A DNA stretch of 64,000 bases from Sphaerodactylus townsendi. Taxonomy: Eukaryota. Of this stretch, positions 1,253 through 55,941 are shown piece by piece. The notes under the pieces were generated by a model. The model made no database searches and had not been told where the DNA came from. It saw only the letters and a program-made list of their open reading frames with translations. The DNA lies in NCBI RefSeq assembly GCF_021028975.2, contig NC_059428.1, positions 66,898,001-66,962,000 of the forward strand. Reading direction: 5' to 3'. Every line of letters begins with the position of its first letter. Position 1 is the stretch's first letter. The position numbers and the translations under genes were made by a program.

Positions 1253-1959
1253 TATGGGCACAGGATTTTTTTCATTTGCCCCATGATCTGTTTCATGCAT
1301 GCGTGGAGAACCTCCATTTCCCACATTCTCATTGGCAGCTGGTTGTGTCACTCAAATCAGAGGCGTAGCTAGGGAAAATGGAGCCTGGTGTAAAATCTGA
1401 GTTTTGCAGGGCCCCCTGTATGGACGGTCTCCCCACAACCAAAAGCCACCCTCCCCCACTACGACCAAAGAACAATTTTTGCACCATGGCATCTCAAAGT
1501 CACTATCACATTATAGAACATGTCCCAACTCACAAATCTGGGCTCCCTAGTTTAAACAACATTGAAACTGATGCTGTTCAGGGGAGGGAAAATCCACCCT
1601 GAAACAGCATCACTTTTAATGTTGTTTAGAACTAGAGAAGAGCAGATTCTTCTTGGTAATCCATCCACTTATGAGGGAGGGTCTGGGCTCTCTAGTTTAA
1701 ACAACATTGAAAGTGATGCTGTTTCAATGAGGATCCCCCCCTCCACCCCCAGACAGCATCACTTTCAATATTTTTTAGATAAGGGAGCCCAGATTATCCT
1801 TTTAAATCCACCTTAAAGGGAGAATCTGGACTCCCTAAACAACATTGAAAATGATGATGTTTCAGGGTGGATACCCCACCCCCCCGCAACAGCATCACTT
1901 TCAATGTTGGTTGTTGTTTGTTTTCCAGGCTGTGTGGCCATGGTCTGGTAGATCTTGTT

Positions 1960-2001
1960 CCTAATGTTTCGCCTGCATCTGTGGCTGGCATCTTCAGAGG
2001 T
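1960..2001 (-). ncRNA. Minimal hammerhead ribozyme-like motif, opposite-strand copy
   Basis: Reverse complement of 2077-2118 (cctaatgtttcgcctgcatctgtggctggcatcttcagaggt). Confidence 0.55.
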
Positions 2002-2076
2002 GTATCCACAAGAGAGAAGTCTCAGTTATACACTGTGTCCAGACTTCTCTTATTACAAGACTTCTCTCTGTGATAC

Positions 2077-2118
2077 ACCTCTGAAGATGCCAGCCACAGA
2101 TGCAGGCGAAACATTAGG
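2077..2118 (+). ncRNA. Minimal type-I hammerhead ribozyme-like motif (Penelope-associated)
   Basis: cct-CTGAAGA(2081-2087)-tgcc...ggc-GAAAC-ATT-agg. CUGANGA and GAAA core boxes are present, with GCC/GGC stem II and CCT/AGG stem I. The stem III G appears mutated to A. Confidence 0.55.
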
Positions 2119-2859
2119 AACAAGATCTACCAGACCATGGCCACACAGCCTGGAAAACCCACAACAACCAGTTGAATCCATCTGTGAAAGTCTTCAACAA
2201 TACTTTCAAAGATTTTTTTAATCTAGGGAGCCCAGATTCTCCCTTTAAATCCACTCAGAAGGGATCAGAAGGGACCAGAATTTCTATGCAGTGCAATCCA
2301 CAATCAGGTTAAGCCTATGGACTTATTCAAGGCAATAAGACTTAGGTTTAACCTTAGCTGAACTGAAATTGAAGATACCCACATTACCGCTCCACAGGTA
2401 CATTTATCCCTAGGTCATGCAGTGTGTATTCAAATTGTCAAGATTTTTGTTAGTGGAAATCAAATAAATTGGCATTTGTTAATATTTCTTAGATTTTCTA
2501 ATGTTTCCAAAAATGTAATGGCTAATGGATATTCAGTATTTGGATCGTTTTCCCCATCTTAACCTACACTGTGTACAAAGCAATTACAGCAATTATGGAC
2601 TGTGATTTTTTTATTTACATTGTTAATTGCATTATGTTGCAGAATCCTTAGAAGAGCTAAGGATTGTTTGACAGAAAAGGTGCAATTGGTGAACATTGCC
2701 TATCTATCCACCAGCCATGTCATGTTCTAAAAACTGTAGACCCAGACTAGACTTTACTTGTTTTCTTTTGTGCATTGGAAAAAGTGGACAGTTGCCCAGG
2801 GCGCCCCCCTTGTGAGAAGTGGAAACGTCAAAAAATCTGGAGTTATTGGATTTTGTGGG

Positions 2860-3260
2860 ATTTTTTTGTATTTTTGGTGTGTTTTCCGTTTTCGGCCTGC
2901 AGGGGACGCAGTTTTTAGGCTAGCAGTACCAAAATTTCAGAGATTTTTCAGGAGACTCTCCTGATGATATCACCCAGGTTTGATTTAGGGAGTCCAAAGT
3001 TATGGACTCCCAAAGGGAGTGCTCCCATCCCCCATTATTTCCAATGGGAGCTAATAGGAGATGGGGAGTGATGCACTTTTGAGGGGTCCATAACTTTTGA
3101 CCCCCCTGAACCAAACTTCACTGAAACCTGGGTGGTATTATCATCAGTAGGGGGGCTTCACAAAGATACTCTTGAAATTTTTGGTGCTGCTATCTTAATA
3201 ATCGCACTCCTGACAGCAGGCACCCCCTAAATTTTCCCAGATTATCCTGTTAAATCCACC
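2860..3260. repeat. Interspersed DNA-transposon internal repeat (also at 38020-38110 and 43830-44720)
   Basis: Shared motifs 'ccaaaatttcag', 'ggagactctcctgatgat', 'ccaatgggagctaa' and 'ggtccataacttt..ccccc..aaccaaactt'. Confidence 0.75.
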
Positions 3261-3267
3261 CCCCTTC

Positions 3268-3340
3268 CTGCCAATCCTTGTTTTCTTTTATTTGTTTATT
3301 CCCTCAATGCCTAATAAAGGTTGTTGTTGTTGTTGTTGTT
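3268..3340 (+). mobile_element. Severely 5'-truncated LINE tail with (GTT)n end and ~18-bp TSD
   Basis: 'atgcctaataaagg(ttg)n' flanked by GTTAAATCCACCCCC(C)TTC at 3249-3267 and 3341-3358. Confidence 0.75.
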
Positions 3341-4341
3341 GTTAAATCCACCCCCTTCGGCATGGATTTAAAGGGAGAATCTGAGGTCCCTAGTTTAAAC
3401 ATTGAAAGTGATGCTGTTTCAGGGTGAGGAAAATCCACCCCAAAATAAGAGTCATCACTTTCCAATGTTATTTAAACTAGGGACCCCAGATTCTCCCAAC
3501 TTTAAGGTGGACTGAAAAGTAGAATCTGGGCTCCCTAGTTTAAACACCATTGAAAATGATGATGCGTTTTGGTGATTCCTAGCATCACTTTGTTTAAACT
3601 ATGGAGTCTAAATTCTCCTTTTAAATCCACCTTAAAGGAGAATCTGAGGTCCCCAGTTTAAATAACATTGAAAGTGATGCTGTTTCCCCCAATTAGAGGG
3701 ACTGGATACAACAACATAAAAGTGTGTTTCATAGCAGTAATAAAACATTTGAAAGCATTTTGAAAATGTTTTTTAAAATATTTCTGCTGTGTGGCATGGC
3801 CCCATTCTTTGCTAACGTGTTCAGATTTTGCTGAGTTGGGGCATGTTCTATAATGTGATGAGTGACTTTGAAAATGACTCTGGTGGAAAAAAATCATTGT
3901 TTGGTCACGGTAGGGGAGGGTGGCCACCCATGGCATCAAACTCAGGTTTTGCCCAGGGCTCCAGTTTGCCTAGGTACACCATTGGTTTTGTGAAATTAAA
4001 AACACCTCGCTATGCAGCTTTCCAGTAAGGAGACAGATAATGGAGCAGCAATATATATATTCTGCCACTGATCTTCCCTACAGCCACATGATATAAAAAC
4101 ACAGAGCTGGAAGAGAGCCCAAGGGTCACCTATTTTAATCTTCTGCTCAATGCTGGAAATTCACAGCTACCTCCCCCTGTTTCTAATGATACCTGCTGTA
4201 TAAACTGAGAGGCTAAGGTACAGGCCCTAGAATCCTCTGTCGGATGCATCATTCTACTGATTCTACTGTACAGGGATTTGGTGGCAGGTGGATCAATGTG
4301 GCAATATTTTCTGAAGACAGGAACTTTGAACTCCAATGCTC

Positions 4342-37933: not shown

Positions 37934-38112
37934 CAGAGGTGAAGCTACAAGACGGCCAGGGGGTGCGCGTTGCACTGGGCGCACGCCTGGGGGTGGGGAC
38001 ATGAAAAAAATCAGGTTTGTGTTATTTGTATTTTTTAGTATTTTTTCAGTTTTTGGCCTGCAGGGGGTGCAGTTTTTAGGATAGCAGCACCAAAATTTCA
38101 GGGTATCTTTAG
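37934..38112. mobile_element. Truncated hAT-like element end
   Basis: cagaggtgaagctac...gggtgcgcgttgcactgggcgcacgcctggggg (reverse complement of 19720-19776) joined to the 2860-type internal repeat. Confidence 0.65.
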
Positions 38113-39043
38113 GAGCAGGCTGGTTTAATAGCAGGCTGGTTTAAGCTAGATGTAACAACATCTGTTAATCAACAGCTGGCCAAGCCAGGTTTAGGATCTT
38201 ATCAGAGTTGTATTTGAAATTATTTATCTCATACAGCCCAGCTCAAGCCTGATATGACTTATATATATAAACTAATATTTAATCTCTGTTCCTCCTCTTT
38301 TCTAGAGTGTCCTCTGATTCCTGCAGCTGTTGCTTGGTTTTCAAAGCATTATATTCTATTAATAGATCTAATTTTCCCCATGGCAACACTTGTTGATACT
38401 TAAAACCAGAGACTGTAGCCATGAACAGGCAAGACAGATATTTCTACAAACCTGAAAAAAGCCCCAGATTTTCAGAAAAAATCTAAAAGAAAAATGCATT
38501 GGGAGGGGGATTCATTCTCTCAAAATAATAGTAGCAGTACCTGTACCTTTAAGAAATGGATGCTCTCTGCAATCTCAGTAGCTATTGTCGGGATTGATAG
38601 GCAAGGACAACAGTATTGCCAGCCTTAACACCTTAATTTCTATCTGTAAAAGGCAAGGGGAGGGTTCCTTCCAGGGCTATTCTGGCTTCCCAGTCCACTC
38701 CTTCCCTCCCTCCTGTGCTGGAGGGAGGATTCATCATGGAAAACCCTAGCAGCAACCACTAGGCAACTTACTAACATGCAGCTTGCACAACTCACCCAGG
38801 AGGGGCATTGGCTACACCTTGATGCCACACAACTCACCTGGGATCAAAAGCAGGTTTCATACAACATGGCTGAGGATGACAGTGGTCACCACACAACTTA
38901 TCTAAGCAGGTAACTACCATGTGACTTTTACAACTTTACCATACTTGGCCAAGAAAGAGGCTGCAAGGAAAAGGGAGGAAAGAAGGGAAAGCTTAGAATC
39001 AATGTGGGACAGGGGTTAGAACTGAAGGCTGGTGGAAGCACAT

Positions 39044-43830: not shown

Positions 43831-46052
43831 AATCCTTTGGCCCCCCTCAACCAAACTTGGGGATATGATCAGGAAAGTGTCCTGAAGATACCCTGAAATT
43901 TTAGTAAGTCACTTAACTTTTTAAAAAATTTTTGTGGAACCTCCATGTGCAATAGCACAGTTAATTCGAAAAAAACACACAAAATTTTAAAGTTAGTGAC
44001 ACCAAAAATTTCAGGGTAGCCTTCCAGGAGACCTCTCCTGATGATACTCCCTCAAGTTTGGTGAAGCTTTTAGCTGGACGGGGCCCTGTTATGCACTCCC
44101 AAAGGGGTACTCCTTTCCCCATTGTTTCCAATGGGAGCTAAGCAGATGGGGGCTACTCCTTTTGCGGGTCTATAACTTTGGCCCCCCTCAACCAAACTTC
44201 ACCAAACTTGGGCAGTATCATCAAGAGAGTCTCTTCATGATACCCAGAAATTGTGGTGCAGATAGGTCCAAAAATGAGCCTCCTGCAGGCACCCCCAGAA
44301 ATTTCCCATTGAGAAACATGGAGCAAATTCACAGAGAAATGAAGAATCTTCGGCACATTTCTAGGGTTGCCTGCAGGAGGCTCATTTTTGGACCTATCCG
44401 AACCAGAATTTCAGGGTATCATAGAGATACTGTCCTTATGGCACACCCCAAGTTTGGTGAAGTTTGGTTGAGGGGGGGGCAAAGTTATAGACCCTCAAAA
44501 GGGGTAGCCCCATCTGCTTAGCTCCCATTGGAAACAATGGGGGATAGGGGCACCCACTTTGAGGGTCCATAACTTTGGCCCCCCTCAACCAAACTTGAGG
44601 AGTATCATCAGGAGAGTCTCCTGGAGGTACCCTGAAATTTTGGTGCTGATACCTCTAAAAATGCGCCTCCTGCAGGCCAAAACGCAAAAAAAACACCAAA
44701 AAAATAAAAACGCATCCGAGAATCTCGGATGCTGCTGTAATTTCGGGTGGATCCGAGCCTGCGCAGGCTCGGATCTCGGGAGATCCGACCCCACACATCT
44801 GAAATGGGCCCGATCCCGAACCTGGGCCGAATTTTTTTCCAATCTCCTTTGTAGCTCTCTCTCTCTTTTTTTAAAAAAAGATTTGTTGTGGATTTTTTTC
44901 TGGAATTGCCACCTATATCAAAATGCCCCCCTACCTATTTTTAGGTGTACAGAAGCTTTTGGTGTTGTTATAGTTTTTTCTTTCAGTAATGCATGAGTAA
45001 CAACATTCAAGTCATTTTGATATATAGAAATGGGAATGTGAAAAGCAAACTATCAGCCCTTTCTTATTGAAAAGCTTTGATAGCCACTTATCCAGAGATG
45101 AGAACCAATTTATTAAGATGTTGCTTACTACTTTCTCTAAATTTTGCCTCCACTATAAACTTACATGAAGGTTCTTACATAAATAGTTTCCCAGCTAAAG
45201 TTTCATCTTAAAAATGAAAACTAAGTGTTGTACGTATTCCTTGCCAGCTTCATTCTGGGAAACGTTGCTGTTGCTGTGTGTGTGTTCCATACATGTGGGT
45301 GGAAAGGAACAATGCTTTAGAAACTGGCAGGAGAGCCAGGCACTGACAGGAATTTTTTGAGTGGACTCTTATGTTCTAAACCAGTCACCACACCCTAACA
45401 GAACATCTGTAATTCCCTATTCACCCTTACAATTTAACCCCTTTGGTTCAGGAAAGAATTCTCTCAGTCTTGCAGATGTTATATATGTATGATATGTGTA
45501 TGATAAATTCATTTTAAAGGCTTATGGGGGGCGGGATAAGCTGGAGGGTTTGGGGATCAATTCAGTACTTAGAAAGAATTCAAAACAGTTTAAGGCAGTA
45601 ATCCTGATCACACTTACTTGAGAATAACCCCAATAAACACAGTAGAAACGACTTCTGAGTAAACCTGTACTGTTTAAACCTAGAGGAATCTAGAAAATAT
45701 ATAATGTTATAATAAATGAATCTTATTTCAGTGTCTAAATATATTGTTAGAGAATGCAATAAAATTATTTTTGAAGTATTGATCAGTACATACACATTGT
45801 GGTTATTTACAAGCAGGATACCCTCAAGGATTTGCAGGGGGCATCTCATTTTTCTATCTTGAATATTTCTTCTATTCGTTCCATGAAAATGCCCAAAGTT
45901 TCATGCTTCCTTCACTCCTTTTCACCAACCCGCCAACCTACCTTTATTTGACTGTCTGTTTTTAGCTTTCTCTCCTTTCATTCCCTTGGCATTCTGTTTC
46001 TGGGATAGCCAGTTGTGTGGGATGGCCACCAGTTGGGCCCACTTGCTCAGCA

Positions 46053-53512: not shown

Positions 53513-53670
53513 GACATCTTCAGAGGTGTATCAAAGAGGGAACAGACTTGTATGCAACAGACTTTTCTCTGTGATACACCTCTGAAGATGCCAGTCACAG
53601 ATGCAGGTGAAACGTTAGGAACAAGATCCACCAGACCACAGCCACACAGCCCGGAAAACCCACAACAACC
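53513..53670. mobile_element. Penelope-like fold-back fragment, same family as 1909-2200, with hammerhead motif
   Basis: cct-CTGAAGA(53582)-tgcc...ggt-GAAAC-GTT-agg on the + strand. A short inverted left arm 'catcttcagaggtgtatca' is present. Confidence 0.75.
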
Positions 53671-55941
53671 ATTTTTAAATAAGATTTTCTTTTATTCTTG
53701 TAAGGCATTAGAACCCAGCTACAATCAGGAGAGCAAACAAAGCATACTAAGAATTTTTGATGGGTAAAGTTTGCTTTCTTTCTTGAGATCTTGCTAATTG
53801 CCATGTTGTGTATGAGAGAGGGTGATAAAAGTATCTTTATTAGAACTGAGCTGGAGGCAGCAGTTTTTGCAAACACTGTTGCCAGCATTGAAAAATGCCC
53901 TCAAACAACATTTAATGAATCTCTGAAAAATGAATTGTTCTCCTGCTCATTGTCTTGTTGTCCTCACCATCCTTTCAAATTAACTGACATTCTCCTTGTA
54001 GTCAATCCAGAAAACTTTTACTTCATTCTAAGTAAGAAGTTGGATTCAGAAAAAAGTGGCAGTTTCCACCTTCTGTAAGCTTCCCTCATTTTGCTCAGCT
54101 GGGTCTATTATCCTAAAGGAACAGCATTTCATGGTGAGCAGAGAATGAATGAGGGAGGGAAAAAAACAGGAAAATTCTGTTCCACTGATAGAAAATTTAA
54201 TTTGGATCCAACTCAAGTTTTATTTGTGCTCATTAGTTAGTTATATAACACCAACATGTCACTTAAACATTCCCTGATTTGAAGATACCATGTAGTAAGG
54301 AGAAAGAAAAAGAGGGGGTGGGGGATGGGGTTGGATCTCACACACCTATTCTACCAACTCTGGCTCCTACCTCTAGGACAAAGAGATTTCCATCAATATC
54401 AACAGGCTTAAACTAGTGAAACAAATCTGCAGATTGTTTGTTGGTGGGAAGAGAAAAAAATCCTGTAACGTATAAAAACAAAACGAGTTACTTGAACCAA
54501 AGATTTACAGACTAATGTTAAAGCAAAGGAAGAAGAACATTGTTTCTTTCAGTTGTTCTGTGATTTCGTACTAGATAGCATGAGACTTTCACATCTTTCT
54601 TAGAACTTGCTGGTCTATAATTGCTTCTAACCTCAGATAGTCTCTTAGGCTTCCAAACATATTTGTTATAGCACCCATTAATATTTCATAAAGGCTTTTG
54701 AGGCTTCTGGTGTTACTGATATCCTTATATTTTCTTTCCTAAATTATTTACATATCCCAGATCCAGCAATCTTAGGGACACTGCATTCAAAAAAGAGTTC
54801 TCAACAACCTTTCCCAACTGTAAGATGTTTCTGGTTCACAGAAAACAAAACAAAACAGAGGTTAGGCCCTGCTGAGGATGGCACTGTAAATGGTATGAGG
54901 TGTTGCAGGTTCAAGAGGGTGAAACTGACCAGACAGCAGAACAGTTGGGCTCTTTCCCCCTCTGATGCCTTTGCTGTGTTGAAAGCACCCAGAAGTTGCA
55001 TCTTTTTTTAAGATGTCCCCCAGATGTCTTATTTTGAGTGTGCTGAATGAAAAGAGGTAATCTTTTCTTTTTAAGACATTTGACAGATATTTTTTATACT
55101 ATGCAGAATGGACCAATGCATCTTTTAAAGATATCATACCATTAAAGGCCTCAAGGCAACCGAAAGGATCTGTAATTGCAGATTTCAAGACAATGTAATC
55201 TTAATCACTATTCAGTGCCTCTTAGTAACACACACAGTTATAGACACATTCATGCCTGACAAGCAAAAATTGGGATAGGATCCCTGGGAGAGGATTCGTG
55301 GGGTTAAGGTACAAATTTGCATCCAATGTACATGAAGCATCTTTCTTCCATACCTGGAAAGGCTCCTCTGCTGCAGCCATCAGCTGCATATACAAGCCTC
55401 TGCCTCTGCAGTAGCTTCAACTCAGGAGTTACCACCAGCTGGCAACATAGACAGAAGAAGCCAAACAAGATGCACAACTACCGTTTAAGGAAATGCTCTG
55501 CCTGCTGGACACAGACAACAAAGGGGTATGAATACAAACATGAGCAAAGACAAGGGACCTTTTCCTGCAGTGCAGGAGTGATACAGCGATTATTTTTTTT
55601 AAAGGTACAGTGGTCAGGGAGGTGCTGGAAGGAGGAAGGAAAGGGTGCGGTTTTGTTGCTGCAATTAATGCTGGGAAAATTTGGGGACATGACTGTACAC
55701 TGCTGGTGAAGCTGAGATACAAGTAGATAAAGAATAACCACTCAGGGAAAAAGAAGGACAAAGGCATCAAACACCCAATATTGAAGCAGATTACCTGATG
55801 TGTACTTAAAAGAAATTTACACTATGTGGGGCAATAACCACCAGAAATATCCTGTGCATAAAAGCCCTGTGGCTTCCCAACGTAGTTCACATTTGAGACT
55901 TTTTTCACATGAAATTGCCGCCCTCTGACCTTCTGCTCAGA

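What the first reader, a model, noticed from the sequence alone, without database searches (positions are those of the whole stretch)
1909..2200. Fold-back Penelope-like fragment with hammerhead ribozyme cores on both strands
Seen: two near-identical ~110-bp inverted arms, each with cct-CTGAAGA-tgcc..ggc-GAAAC-ATT-agg, so a transcript from either strand contains a hammerhead core plus its antisense. Established: Penelope-like elements carry minimal type-I hammerheads that lack a stable stem III and work as dimers, and they often insert with inverted ends. Both arms share the same G>A change after GAAAC (53614 keeps G), implying the change predates the inversion or the arms were homogenised. 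Inference: this may be a short non-autonomous ribozyme-bearing retroelement family, or a self-silencing ribozyme hairpin.
Basis: partly seen in the sequence, partly recalled or inferred. Interest (0 to 1): 0.7.

Follow-up and report, generated by a model that had tools for sequence, protein, structure and literature searches.

The report
Penelope hairpin riding a DNA transposon
This hairpin is the back-to-back end fragment that a common Penelope jumping gene leaves when it inserts; it sits inside a small DNA transposon that copied it to hundreds of places, its two self-cutting RNA motifs are mutated and likely dead here, and about two dozen sister copies that inserted on their own likely record how Penelope builds such hairpins.

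Summary
In detail: 108-bp inverted arms, each with a minimal hammerhead core. It is a head-to-head, 5'-truncated Penelope/Poseidon-type insertion (tail on one side, 10-bp duplication). The core 29-mer occurs 29,540 times; 49 of 89 sampled loci are such fold-backs, with scattered breakpoints. This particular junction (J1) is fixed: 334 exact matches. Of 90 examined, 81 sit at one spot in a ~1.4-kb non-coding element with terminal inverted repeats and 8-bp target duplications (hAT-type), which carried it as cargo, as published for anole hobo-N elements. The shared G>A postdates the inversion (CpG decay) and breaks the palindrome needed for the dimer. Both cores are also buried in the hairpin, so activity here is unlikely. 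This copy's arms were additionally homogenised (98% versus a median of 90%). The less ordinary part: 24 independent insertions with their own flanks keep J1 while arm alleles change and the tail flips sides (18 right, 5 left). That fits priming from both target ends rather than simple self-priming. Mostly known biology, with one testable mechanistic lead.

The parts
1358..2281 (+). Carrier: non-autonomous hAT-type DNA transposon (family length about 1.2-1.45 kb), this copy lacking its right end
   Evidence: Sharp shared 5' end at 1358; homology to sister copies ends near 2270-2281; sisters have a right TIR and 8-bp TSD; the joint at the truncation is covered by exact contigs 2252-2340 in runs X1 and X4
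1358..1371 (+). Left terminal inverted repeat of the carrier
   Evidence: Reverse complement closes complete sister copies
1898..1907 (+). Left copy of the ~10-bp target duplication made by the Penelope insertion into the carrier
   Evidence: Same word follows the tail in sister copies; single copy at the empty site in carrier copies without the fold-back
1908..2042 (-). Left arm: antisense copy of the Penelope pLTR end and ORF start, ending at the AC-rich loop, no tail
   Evidence: matches the ORF-linked parent sequence up to its natural CTGGACACAG
1960..2000 (-). Minimal hammerhead core, left arm, G16.2>A; predicted cut near 1963
2043..2059 (.). Junction J1: short snap-back filler joining the arms; single-origin marker
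   Evidence: 334 exact matches of the 29-mer across it; absent from 30 ORF-start loci; the variant expected from de novo re-formation has 0 matches
2060..2170 (+). Right arm: sense copy of the pLTR end and ORF start
   Evidence: translates from 2087 to the same N-terminus as near-full-length copy L437
2078..2118 (+). Minimal hammerhead core, right arm: stem I 2078-2080/2116-2118, CUGAAGA 2081-2087, stem II 2089-2107, GAAA 2108-2111, G16.2>A at 2113, predicted cut after 2115
   Evidence: layout as in PMC4209133 and PMC11167929
2171..2202 (+). Penelope tail (32 nt, ORF continuation), ending 115 nt after the A of the ATG
   Evidence: Continues into the ORF in L437 and other ORF-start loci; PAc reverse transcription starts 111-118 nt into the ORF
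2203..2212 (+). Right copy of the target duplication (2 mismatches in this copy)

Best explanation
The hairpin is a head-to-head, 5'-truncated Penelope-type insertion that lies as cargo inside a non-autonomous hAT-type DNA transposon, and its two hammerhead cores are likely inactive relics. Steps: (1) shown: an abundant Penelope family with RT and GIY-YIG endonuclease often inserts as two back-to-back end copies with a tail on one side and varied junctions. (2) Shown: one junction, J1, recurs in at least 24 insertions with unrelated flanks; inferred: it arose once and was then copied through RNA by the Penelope protein, likely with both nicked target ends priming and the two cDNAs pairing through the palindrome. 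(3) Shown: the J1 fold-back occupies one site, with a ~10-bp duplication, in an element with TIRs and 8-bp TSDs; inferred: it inserted once and a hAT transposase acting in trans multiplied the composite to several hundred copies. (4) Shown: the cores decayed at CpG sites after the inversion. Predicted: any read-through RNA makes the antisense arm first and folds into a ~130-bp duplex that buries the core, and ACGU>ACAU removes dimer helix III. (5) Shown: this copy's arms became more alike than in its sisters; inferred: local conversion between the arms.
For: Parent: same pLTR end attached to a GIY-YIG ORF (L039, PF01541 29 bits, cut-off 22.6); sister family with RT (L036, PF00078 33.9, cut-off 29.6); ORF start inside stem II. 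Family anatomy: 49 of 89 unselected core loci inverted, varied junctions, tail on exactly one side in 42 of 49; 40 of 42 in a second sample. Cargo: 81 of 90 J1 matches in the carrier, 3 more with a shared alternative left flank; 12 of 20 loci with a right-TIR-like hit have an 8-bp TSD with at most 1 mismatch; carrier copies without the fold-back exist, only 4 of 30 carrier 5' ends carry it. Independent J1 copies: 17 of 26 matches to the parent-allele pattern; target duplications in 15 of 23 by script versus 32 of 506 cross pairs; J1 centre unchanged although 10 of 23 left arms carry the other allele, and the de novo variant has 0 matches; tail 18 right, 5 left, 1 none. Decay; toy duplex -14.1 versus -5.0 kcal/mol; hairpin -225.8 versus core -7.6. 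Conversion: 6 of 7 arm-diagnostic sites equal versus 0-3 in 24 sisters; nested in subfamily B; left-arm states matched exactly by a 60-nt low-depth contig in run X3. Precedent: PMC3014272, PMC3846280, PMC8557442.
Against: No autonomous hAT partner was looked for, so trans-mobilisation is inferred from TIR and TSD only; 12 of 32 loci with a left TIR had no right TIR in range and 8 of the 20 with a hit lacked a good TSD. The window's own carrier copy has no right end, so its TSD cannot be checked. Non-CpG core positions are less mutated than base-matched neighbours in 37 carrier-borne copies (left 0.8% versus 2.5%, right 1.7% versus 3.3%), which pure neutrality does not predict; sequence context or shared ancestry may explain it, untested. 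The source of J1 RNA was not found. Arms of ordinary inverted copies mostly share subfamily alleles (27 of 29, 28 of 30) and 0 of 49 are cross-family hybrids, so two different RNAs are not the rule. The tree bootstrap had not settled. No cleavage or expression data.
Confidence: 0.85

Rival explanations
1. The J1 copies with their own flanks all come from the 5' end of one autonomous master element that happened to carry J1, not from a self-renewing non-coding fold-back. Internal initiation would release just this end each time. This changes step 2 only.
For: Near-full-length L437 has an inverted arm at its 5' end followed by the ORF; PAc starts reverse transcription inside the ORF (PMC11167929).
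Against: 0 of 30 ORF-start loci carry J1 (40 of 326 candidates scored); independent J1 copies carry several arm haplotypes, more than one master would give without exchange.
Confidence: 0.4
2. The unit is a functional, selected ribozyme hairpin (self-silencing or a source of silencing RNA against Penelope).
For: Very stable hairpin; several hundred copies; core non-CpG sites less mutated than base-matched sites; this copy's arms homogenised.
Against: Carrier-borne arms are no more alike within a copy than between copies (0.896 versus 0.897, n=86; 0.918 versus 0.917 without CpG, p=0.04); full cores in 5 of 86 left and 25 of 86 right arms; the geometry is the ordinary insertion product; copy number is explained by the carrier.
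Confidence: 0.07
3. J1 is a hot-spot junction that forms afresh at each insertion by snap-back of the cDNA.
For: Junctions cluster near CTGGACACAG and a few use the same first microhomology with other second breakpoints (L222, L256, L262).
Against: The filler copies the A allele even where the adjacent arm has the G allele (10 of 23); the G-allele version has 0 matches although that allele is the commoner one (3,344 versus 1,659).
Confidence: 0.05
4. The near-identity of the arms in this copy is an assembly or polishing artefact of a hard-to-sequence hairpin.
For: The window has private single-base insertions beside the junction; several sister loci look garbled; four of the switched states equal the family majority.
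Against: A 60-nt contig at depth 15 in run X3 matches 1888-1947 exactly, including a base private to this copy among 25 subfamily-B copies. The right arm was not confirmed this way.
Confidence: 0.2

Closest known systems
Penelope/Poseidon-clade PLE insertions, e.g. PAc of Anolis carolinensis (PMC11167929, parts 1-2 of 4 read; PMC3846280 passages and Discussion; PMC8557442 passages)
   Same: ORF starts at hammerhead stem II, cut 26 nt after the ATG, tail ends 115 nt into the ORF, inverted 5'-truncated copy, 30-40-nt tail at one end, ~10-bp TSD, RT plus C-terminal GIY-YIG parent.
   Different: Here only the two ends remain, one junction has been inherited through many insertions, and most copies moved inside a DNA transposon. 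No sequence comparison with PAc itself was made (its file is in a supplement I did not open).
Non-autonomous hobo-N (hAT) families of Anolis carrying a 520-bp Penelope insertion (PMC3014272, passages read)
   Same: Non-autonomous TIR element with 8-bp TSD amplifying a Penelope fragment as cargo; variable internal structure and exchanged ends.
   Different: Cargo here is a complete fold-back with both hammerheads and its own TSD, inserted into the carrier; TIRs were not compared with hobo-N, and no partner transposase was identified.
Metazoan non-LTR retrozymes (bioRxiv 10.64898/2026.07.22.740005, part 1 of 5 and passages; PMC7229834 search listing only)
   Same: Non-coding, type-I hammerhead, derived from a PLE pLTR.
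   Different: Retrozymes are head-to-tail tandems that allow the dimer fold; this is head-to-head, so one transcript holds one core and its antisense.
Minimal PLE hammerheads (PMC4209133, parts 1-2 of 4 read)
   Same: Conserved boxes, unpaired base before stem II, G10.1-C11.1 pair, long stem II, short stem I, no helix III; pairs of cores on opposite strands 100-700 bp apart were already noted there.
   Different: The palindromic 15.2-16.2 pair is broken in both arms of this copy.

Membership tests
EN+ Penelope-like element (Penelope/Poseidon type), truncated copy | Parent ORF with RT and C-terminal GIY-YIG endonuclease joined to this pLTR | tested here: met
   L039 same subfamily PF01541; L036 sister family PF00078; both run into the pLTR/core
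EN+ Penelope-like element (Penelope/Poseidon type), truncated copy | Hammerhead in pLTR with ORF start at stem II and cut 26 nt downstream | tested here: met
   ATG 2087, cut 2115 versus PMC11167929
EN+ Penelope-like element (Penelope/Poseidon type), truncated copy | Inverted 5'-truncated copy and 30-40-nt tail at one end | tested here: met
   Tail 2171-2202; one-sided in 42 of 49 and 40 of 42 inverted loci
EN+ Penelope-like element (Penelope/Poseidon type), truncated copy | Placement in the Penelope/Poseidon clade by RT phylogeny | not tested
   No reference RT set on hand; clade assignment rests on anatomy
Non-autonomous hAT transposon (carrier) | 8-bp target-site duplication | tested here: met
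   12 of 20 loci with a right-TIR-like hit, at most 1 mismatch; further examples; criterion from PMC3517528
Non-autonomous hAT transposon (carrier) | Short TIRs (5-27 bp), under 4 kb, no coding capacity | tested here: met
   About 14-bp TIR, 1.2-1.45 kb typical; no stop-to-stop frame of 130 aa or more over 1358-2281
Non-autonomous hAT transposon (carrier) | Autonomous partner with matching ends and hAT transposase | not tested
   Not searched
Minimal type-I hammerhead (active) | CUGANGA and GAAA boxes, stems I and II | tested here: met
   (stem II in the MFE; fold no better than shuffles, z about 0)
Minimal type-I hammerhead (active) | Palindromic 15.2-16.2 pair allowing dimer helix III | tested here: not met
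   ACAU in both arms; toy duplex -5.0 versus -14.1 kcal/mol
Minimal type-I hammerhead (active) | Self-cleavage | not testable with these tools
   Needs in vitro assay; PAc needs its protein
Non-LTR retrozyme | Head-to-tail tandem of at least two units with complete cores | tested here: not met
   Two cores, opposite strands; definition
Non-LTR retrozyme | Circular RNA product | not testable with these tools
   No RNA run was available to lay

The most novel reading that the evidence does not exclude
J1 is a self-renewing, protein-free palindromic Penelope parasite: the enzyme primes from both nicked target ends, one cDNA at the tail end and one at the AC-rich loop, and the two anneal through the palindrome, so each jump rebuilds the hairpin, keeps the asymmetric junction, can flip it against the tail and can swap arm alleles. 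One member then boarded a hAT transposon. The junction is thus a natural orientation marker that reads out how Penelope makes its head-to-head ends, in favour of twin priming over the published self-priming-on-antisense model.
Probability: 0.4. Interest if true: 0.58.

Novelty: new variant of a known kind. Interest (0 to 1): 0.32.

Why it matters
As a locus it matters little: a decayed repeat inside another repeat, and a warning that fixed length and high copy number can come from a carrier rather than from the element's own mobility. The sister copies matter more. How Penelope elements make inverted ends and the one-sided tail is described as still undefined (PMC8557442), and the published reading is self-priming on an antisense template (PMC3846280). 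An inherited asymmetric junction that flips relative to the tail is a ready-made substrate for the existing PAc in vitro system and would separate the two models.

Tried and rejected
Rfam: no hammerhead at gathering or E up to 10, also none on control loci; only generic miRNA-hairpin matches below gathering; uninformative. Expression: no RNA holder listed. Laying contigs could not confirm or deny the window's private bases at the junction or the right arm, since the piece tables are cut. Window 1358-3984 as one transposon: rejected, the 8-mers differ at 7 of 8 and sisters end about 900 bp after J1. G>A older than the inversion: rejected. General two-RNA templating of the arms: not supported as the rule (0 of 49 cross-family hybrids, mostly concordant alleles); a minority differ at linked sites (L191, L277, L294, L417, L426), and position 11 differs in 13 of 27 and 2 of 8 allele-selected copies. 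Tail side linked to the position-11 allele: no clear link. J1-bearing autonomous master: 0 of 30. Family-wide concerted evolution of arms in carrier-borne copies: not seen. Earlier findings by sequence and by seven words: none. Seven paper searches listed no report of an inherited fixed-junction Penelope fold-back; subscription journals, Repbase and Dfam were not searchable, and no supplements were read, so the carrier or J1 may already be catalogued.

Full report
Observation. The window is G000:C4:66898001-66962000 in a 1.81-Gb genome; a squamate reptile is my guess from the anatomy shared with the anole element and was not tested. The arms 1908-2015 and 2063-2170 are 108 nt and 94% complementary. 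The region folds at -225.8 kcal/mol, z -28. Both arms hold CCU-CUGAAGA-U-stem II-GAAAC-AUU-AGG, and the third copy at 53,582 keeps G at 53614. Rfam finds no hammerhead here or on control loci, so its models do not cover this minimal form.

The arms are Penelope ends. The core 29-mer has 29,540 exact matches, control 0. L039, of the same subfamily, runs upstream into a GIY-YIG frame; L036, of a sister family, into RT. From 2087 the window translates to the same N-terminus as near-full-length copy L437, where the tail runs on into the ORF. For the anole element PAc the ORF starts at stem II, the cut lies 26 nt after the start codon and reverse transcription begins 111-118 nt into the ORF (PMC11167929, parts 1-2 of 4 read). 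Here these are 2087, 2115 and 2202 (115 nt). Inverted 5'-truncated copies and a one-sided 30-40-nt tail are described as typical (PMC3846280, PMC8557442, passages). In this genome 49 of 89 unselected core loci (the first 90 regions on contig C1, one duplicate dropped) have an inverted partner, with scattered junctions and a tail on exactly one side in 42 of 49. In 90 loci of the subfamily, 68 have an inverted partner. The window's second copy at 53,515 has its own junction and flanks.

Why this junction is fixed. All 40 scored hits to the 268-bp unit are full length at 92-94%, but 28 of the 29 other loci fetched share carrier flank on at least one side. The junction 29-mer (J1) has 334 exact matches. 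Of 90 examined in listed order, 81 lie in the carrier, 3 share another left flank and 6 are independent. The carrier starts sharply at 1358. In 40 long loci, 32 show the left TIR, 20 of these a right-TIR-like hit, and 12 of the 20 an 8-bp duplication with at most 1 mismatch; typical length is 1.2-1.45 kb. Short TIRs and 8-bp TSDs define hAT elements (PMC3517528, passages). The carrier's 5' 20-mer has 2,768 matches; 4 of the first 30 carry the J1 fold-back and several show the empty site. Since 7 of 19 carrier-found fold-backs hold the exact 29-mer, about 900 copies is a rough extrapolation. Non-autonomous hobo-N elements of the anole carry a 520-bp Penelope piece in the same way (PMC3014272, passages). 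The window's carrier copy stops near 2281; exact contigs in runs X1 and X4 cover that joint.

The ribozymes. Minimal PLE hammerheads need a palindromic 15.2-16.2 pair to dimerise and cleave weakly (PMC4209133, parts 1-2 of 4); PAc's cleaves only with its protein and is not needed for insertion in vitro. Here ACGU is ACAU in both arms, which weakens a toy duplex from -14.1 to -5.0 kcal/mol. The change is CpG decay after the inversion: independent J1 copies mostly keep G, while 86 carrier-borne copies have A in 73 left and 38 right arms; subfamily A keeps G on the right, subfamily B (this copy's) has A on both. Full cores remain in 5 of 86 left and 25 of 86 right arms. In a head-to-head layout a read-through transcript from either side makes the antisense arm first, so the core is predicted to be trapped (hairpin -225.8, core -7.6). 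Against a purely neutral reading, non-CpG core positions are less mutated than base-matched ones in 37 copies (left 0.8% versus 2.5%, share of draws 0.001; right 1.7% versus 3.3%, 0.046). The effect is strongest in the arm whose helix III was already lost, so I suspect sequence context; this is unexplained.

Arm homogenisation. Across carrier-borne copies arms are no closer within than between copies (0.896 versus 0.897). This copy is the top outlier (0.982, next 0.964, median 0.896). Against 24 subfamily-B sisters it has 6 of 7 arm-diagnostic sites equal (sisters 0-3), with changes in both directions. It shares B's derived flank duplication and sits among B in a tree of non-arm sequence (73 rows, bootstrap not settled). 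A 60-nt contig in run X3 matches 1888-1947 exactly. Local conversion is likely; an assembly artefact is not excluded for the right arm.

The independent J1 copies. A pattern with the parent allele gave 26 matches: 17 independent, 8 in the carrier, 1 fragment. With 7 from other searches this makes 24; L261, L296 and L307 were left out as mismatched, fragmentary or ambiguous. A script found target duplications in 15 of 23 versus 32 of 506 cross pairs; several misses are end-calling errors where a duplication is visible. Ends fall at the loop and tail sites. J1's filler always copies the A allele, even in the 10 of 23 copies whose own left arm has G, and the G version has 0 matches though G is the commoner allele (3,344 versus 1,659). 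So J1 is inherited. The tail lies right of J1 in 18, left in 5 and is absent in 1. End-to-end copying of one fold-back RNA keeps the tail on one side of J1 whichever strand is read; priming from both target ends with pairing through the palindrome gives both orientations (inference). Arms in these copies are slightly closer within than between copies (0.908 versus 0.897, p=0.0003). Limits: no J1 among 30 ORF-start loci leaves the source unknown; ordinary inverted copies mostly have matching arms and no cross-family hybrids, so both cDNAs usually come from the same or a like RNA; a few differ at linked sites. The published model is self-priming on an antisense template (PMC3846280 Discussion). 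Earlier AI notes on other genomes also propose twin priming; I did not check them and they are not support.

Verdict. A real feature, mostly explained by three known things: Penelope head-to-head insertion, minimal hammerheads in pLTRs, and hAT cargo. It works like a Penelope end copy and is a truncated member of that group; it is not a retrozyme and likely not an active ribozyme. The variant worth noting is the inherited junction that moved first through RNA and then inside a DNA transposon. Not finding this in print rests only; no supplements were read, and repeat databases were not available. Interest 0.32.

Noticed in passing
window 2773-3984: A second hAT-like non-autonomous element with the same internal palindromic subunits, right TIR at 3969-3984, damaged left end and a probable 8-bp TSD (2765-2772 and 3985-3992, 1 mismatch).
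   Followed up: partly
window 53515-53671: Independent Penelope fold-back of the same subfamily with a very short left arm, its own junction, no tail and an intact ACGU.
   Followed up: partly
window 37959-38113 and 43983-44701: Further pieces related to the carrier's right half.
   Followed up: no
window 1535-1912: The carrier's left half is built of ~140-bp palindromic subunits in tandem, whose number varies between copies.
   Followed up: partly
L172 (G000:C1:17366856-17369875): A Penelope copy of the sister family inserted independently at the same carrier motif as the J1 fold-back, hinting at a preferred AT-rich target.
   Followed up: no
L067, L069, L080: J1 copies sharing a different left flank, one with carrier sequence on the right: probably a recombined carrier subfamily.
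   Followed up: partly
L091-L130 right ends: Carrier copies with the same cargo end in at least two different right-end types, suggesting end exchange between carrier subfamilies.
   Followed up: no
L460-L474: Fifteen loci match the ORF start only from about position 114 of the query and share another upstream sequence: a rearranged or sister Penelope 5' end.
   Followed up: no
L191, L277, L294, L417, L426: Single insertions whose two arms differ at two or more linked subfamily sites, as if made from two templates.
   Followed up: partly
G000:C1:4702501-4702947 (L389): Four same-strand hammerhead cores spaced 109, 200 and 109 nt: a short head-to-tail array that could form the dimer.
   Followed up: no
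L182 634-762: 5S rRNA-like sequence (94.9 bits) with a 12-nt insertion beside a Penelope copy.
   Followed up: no
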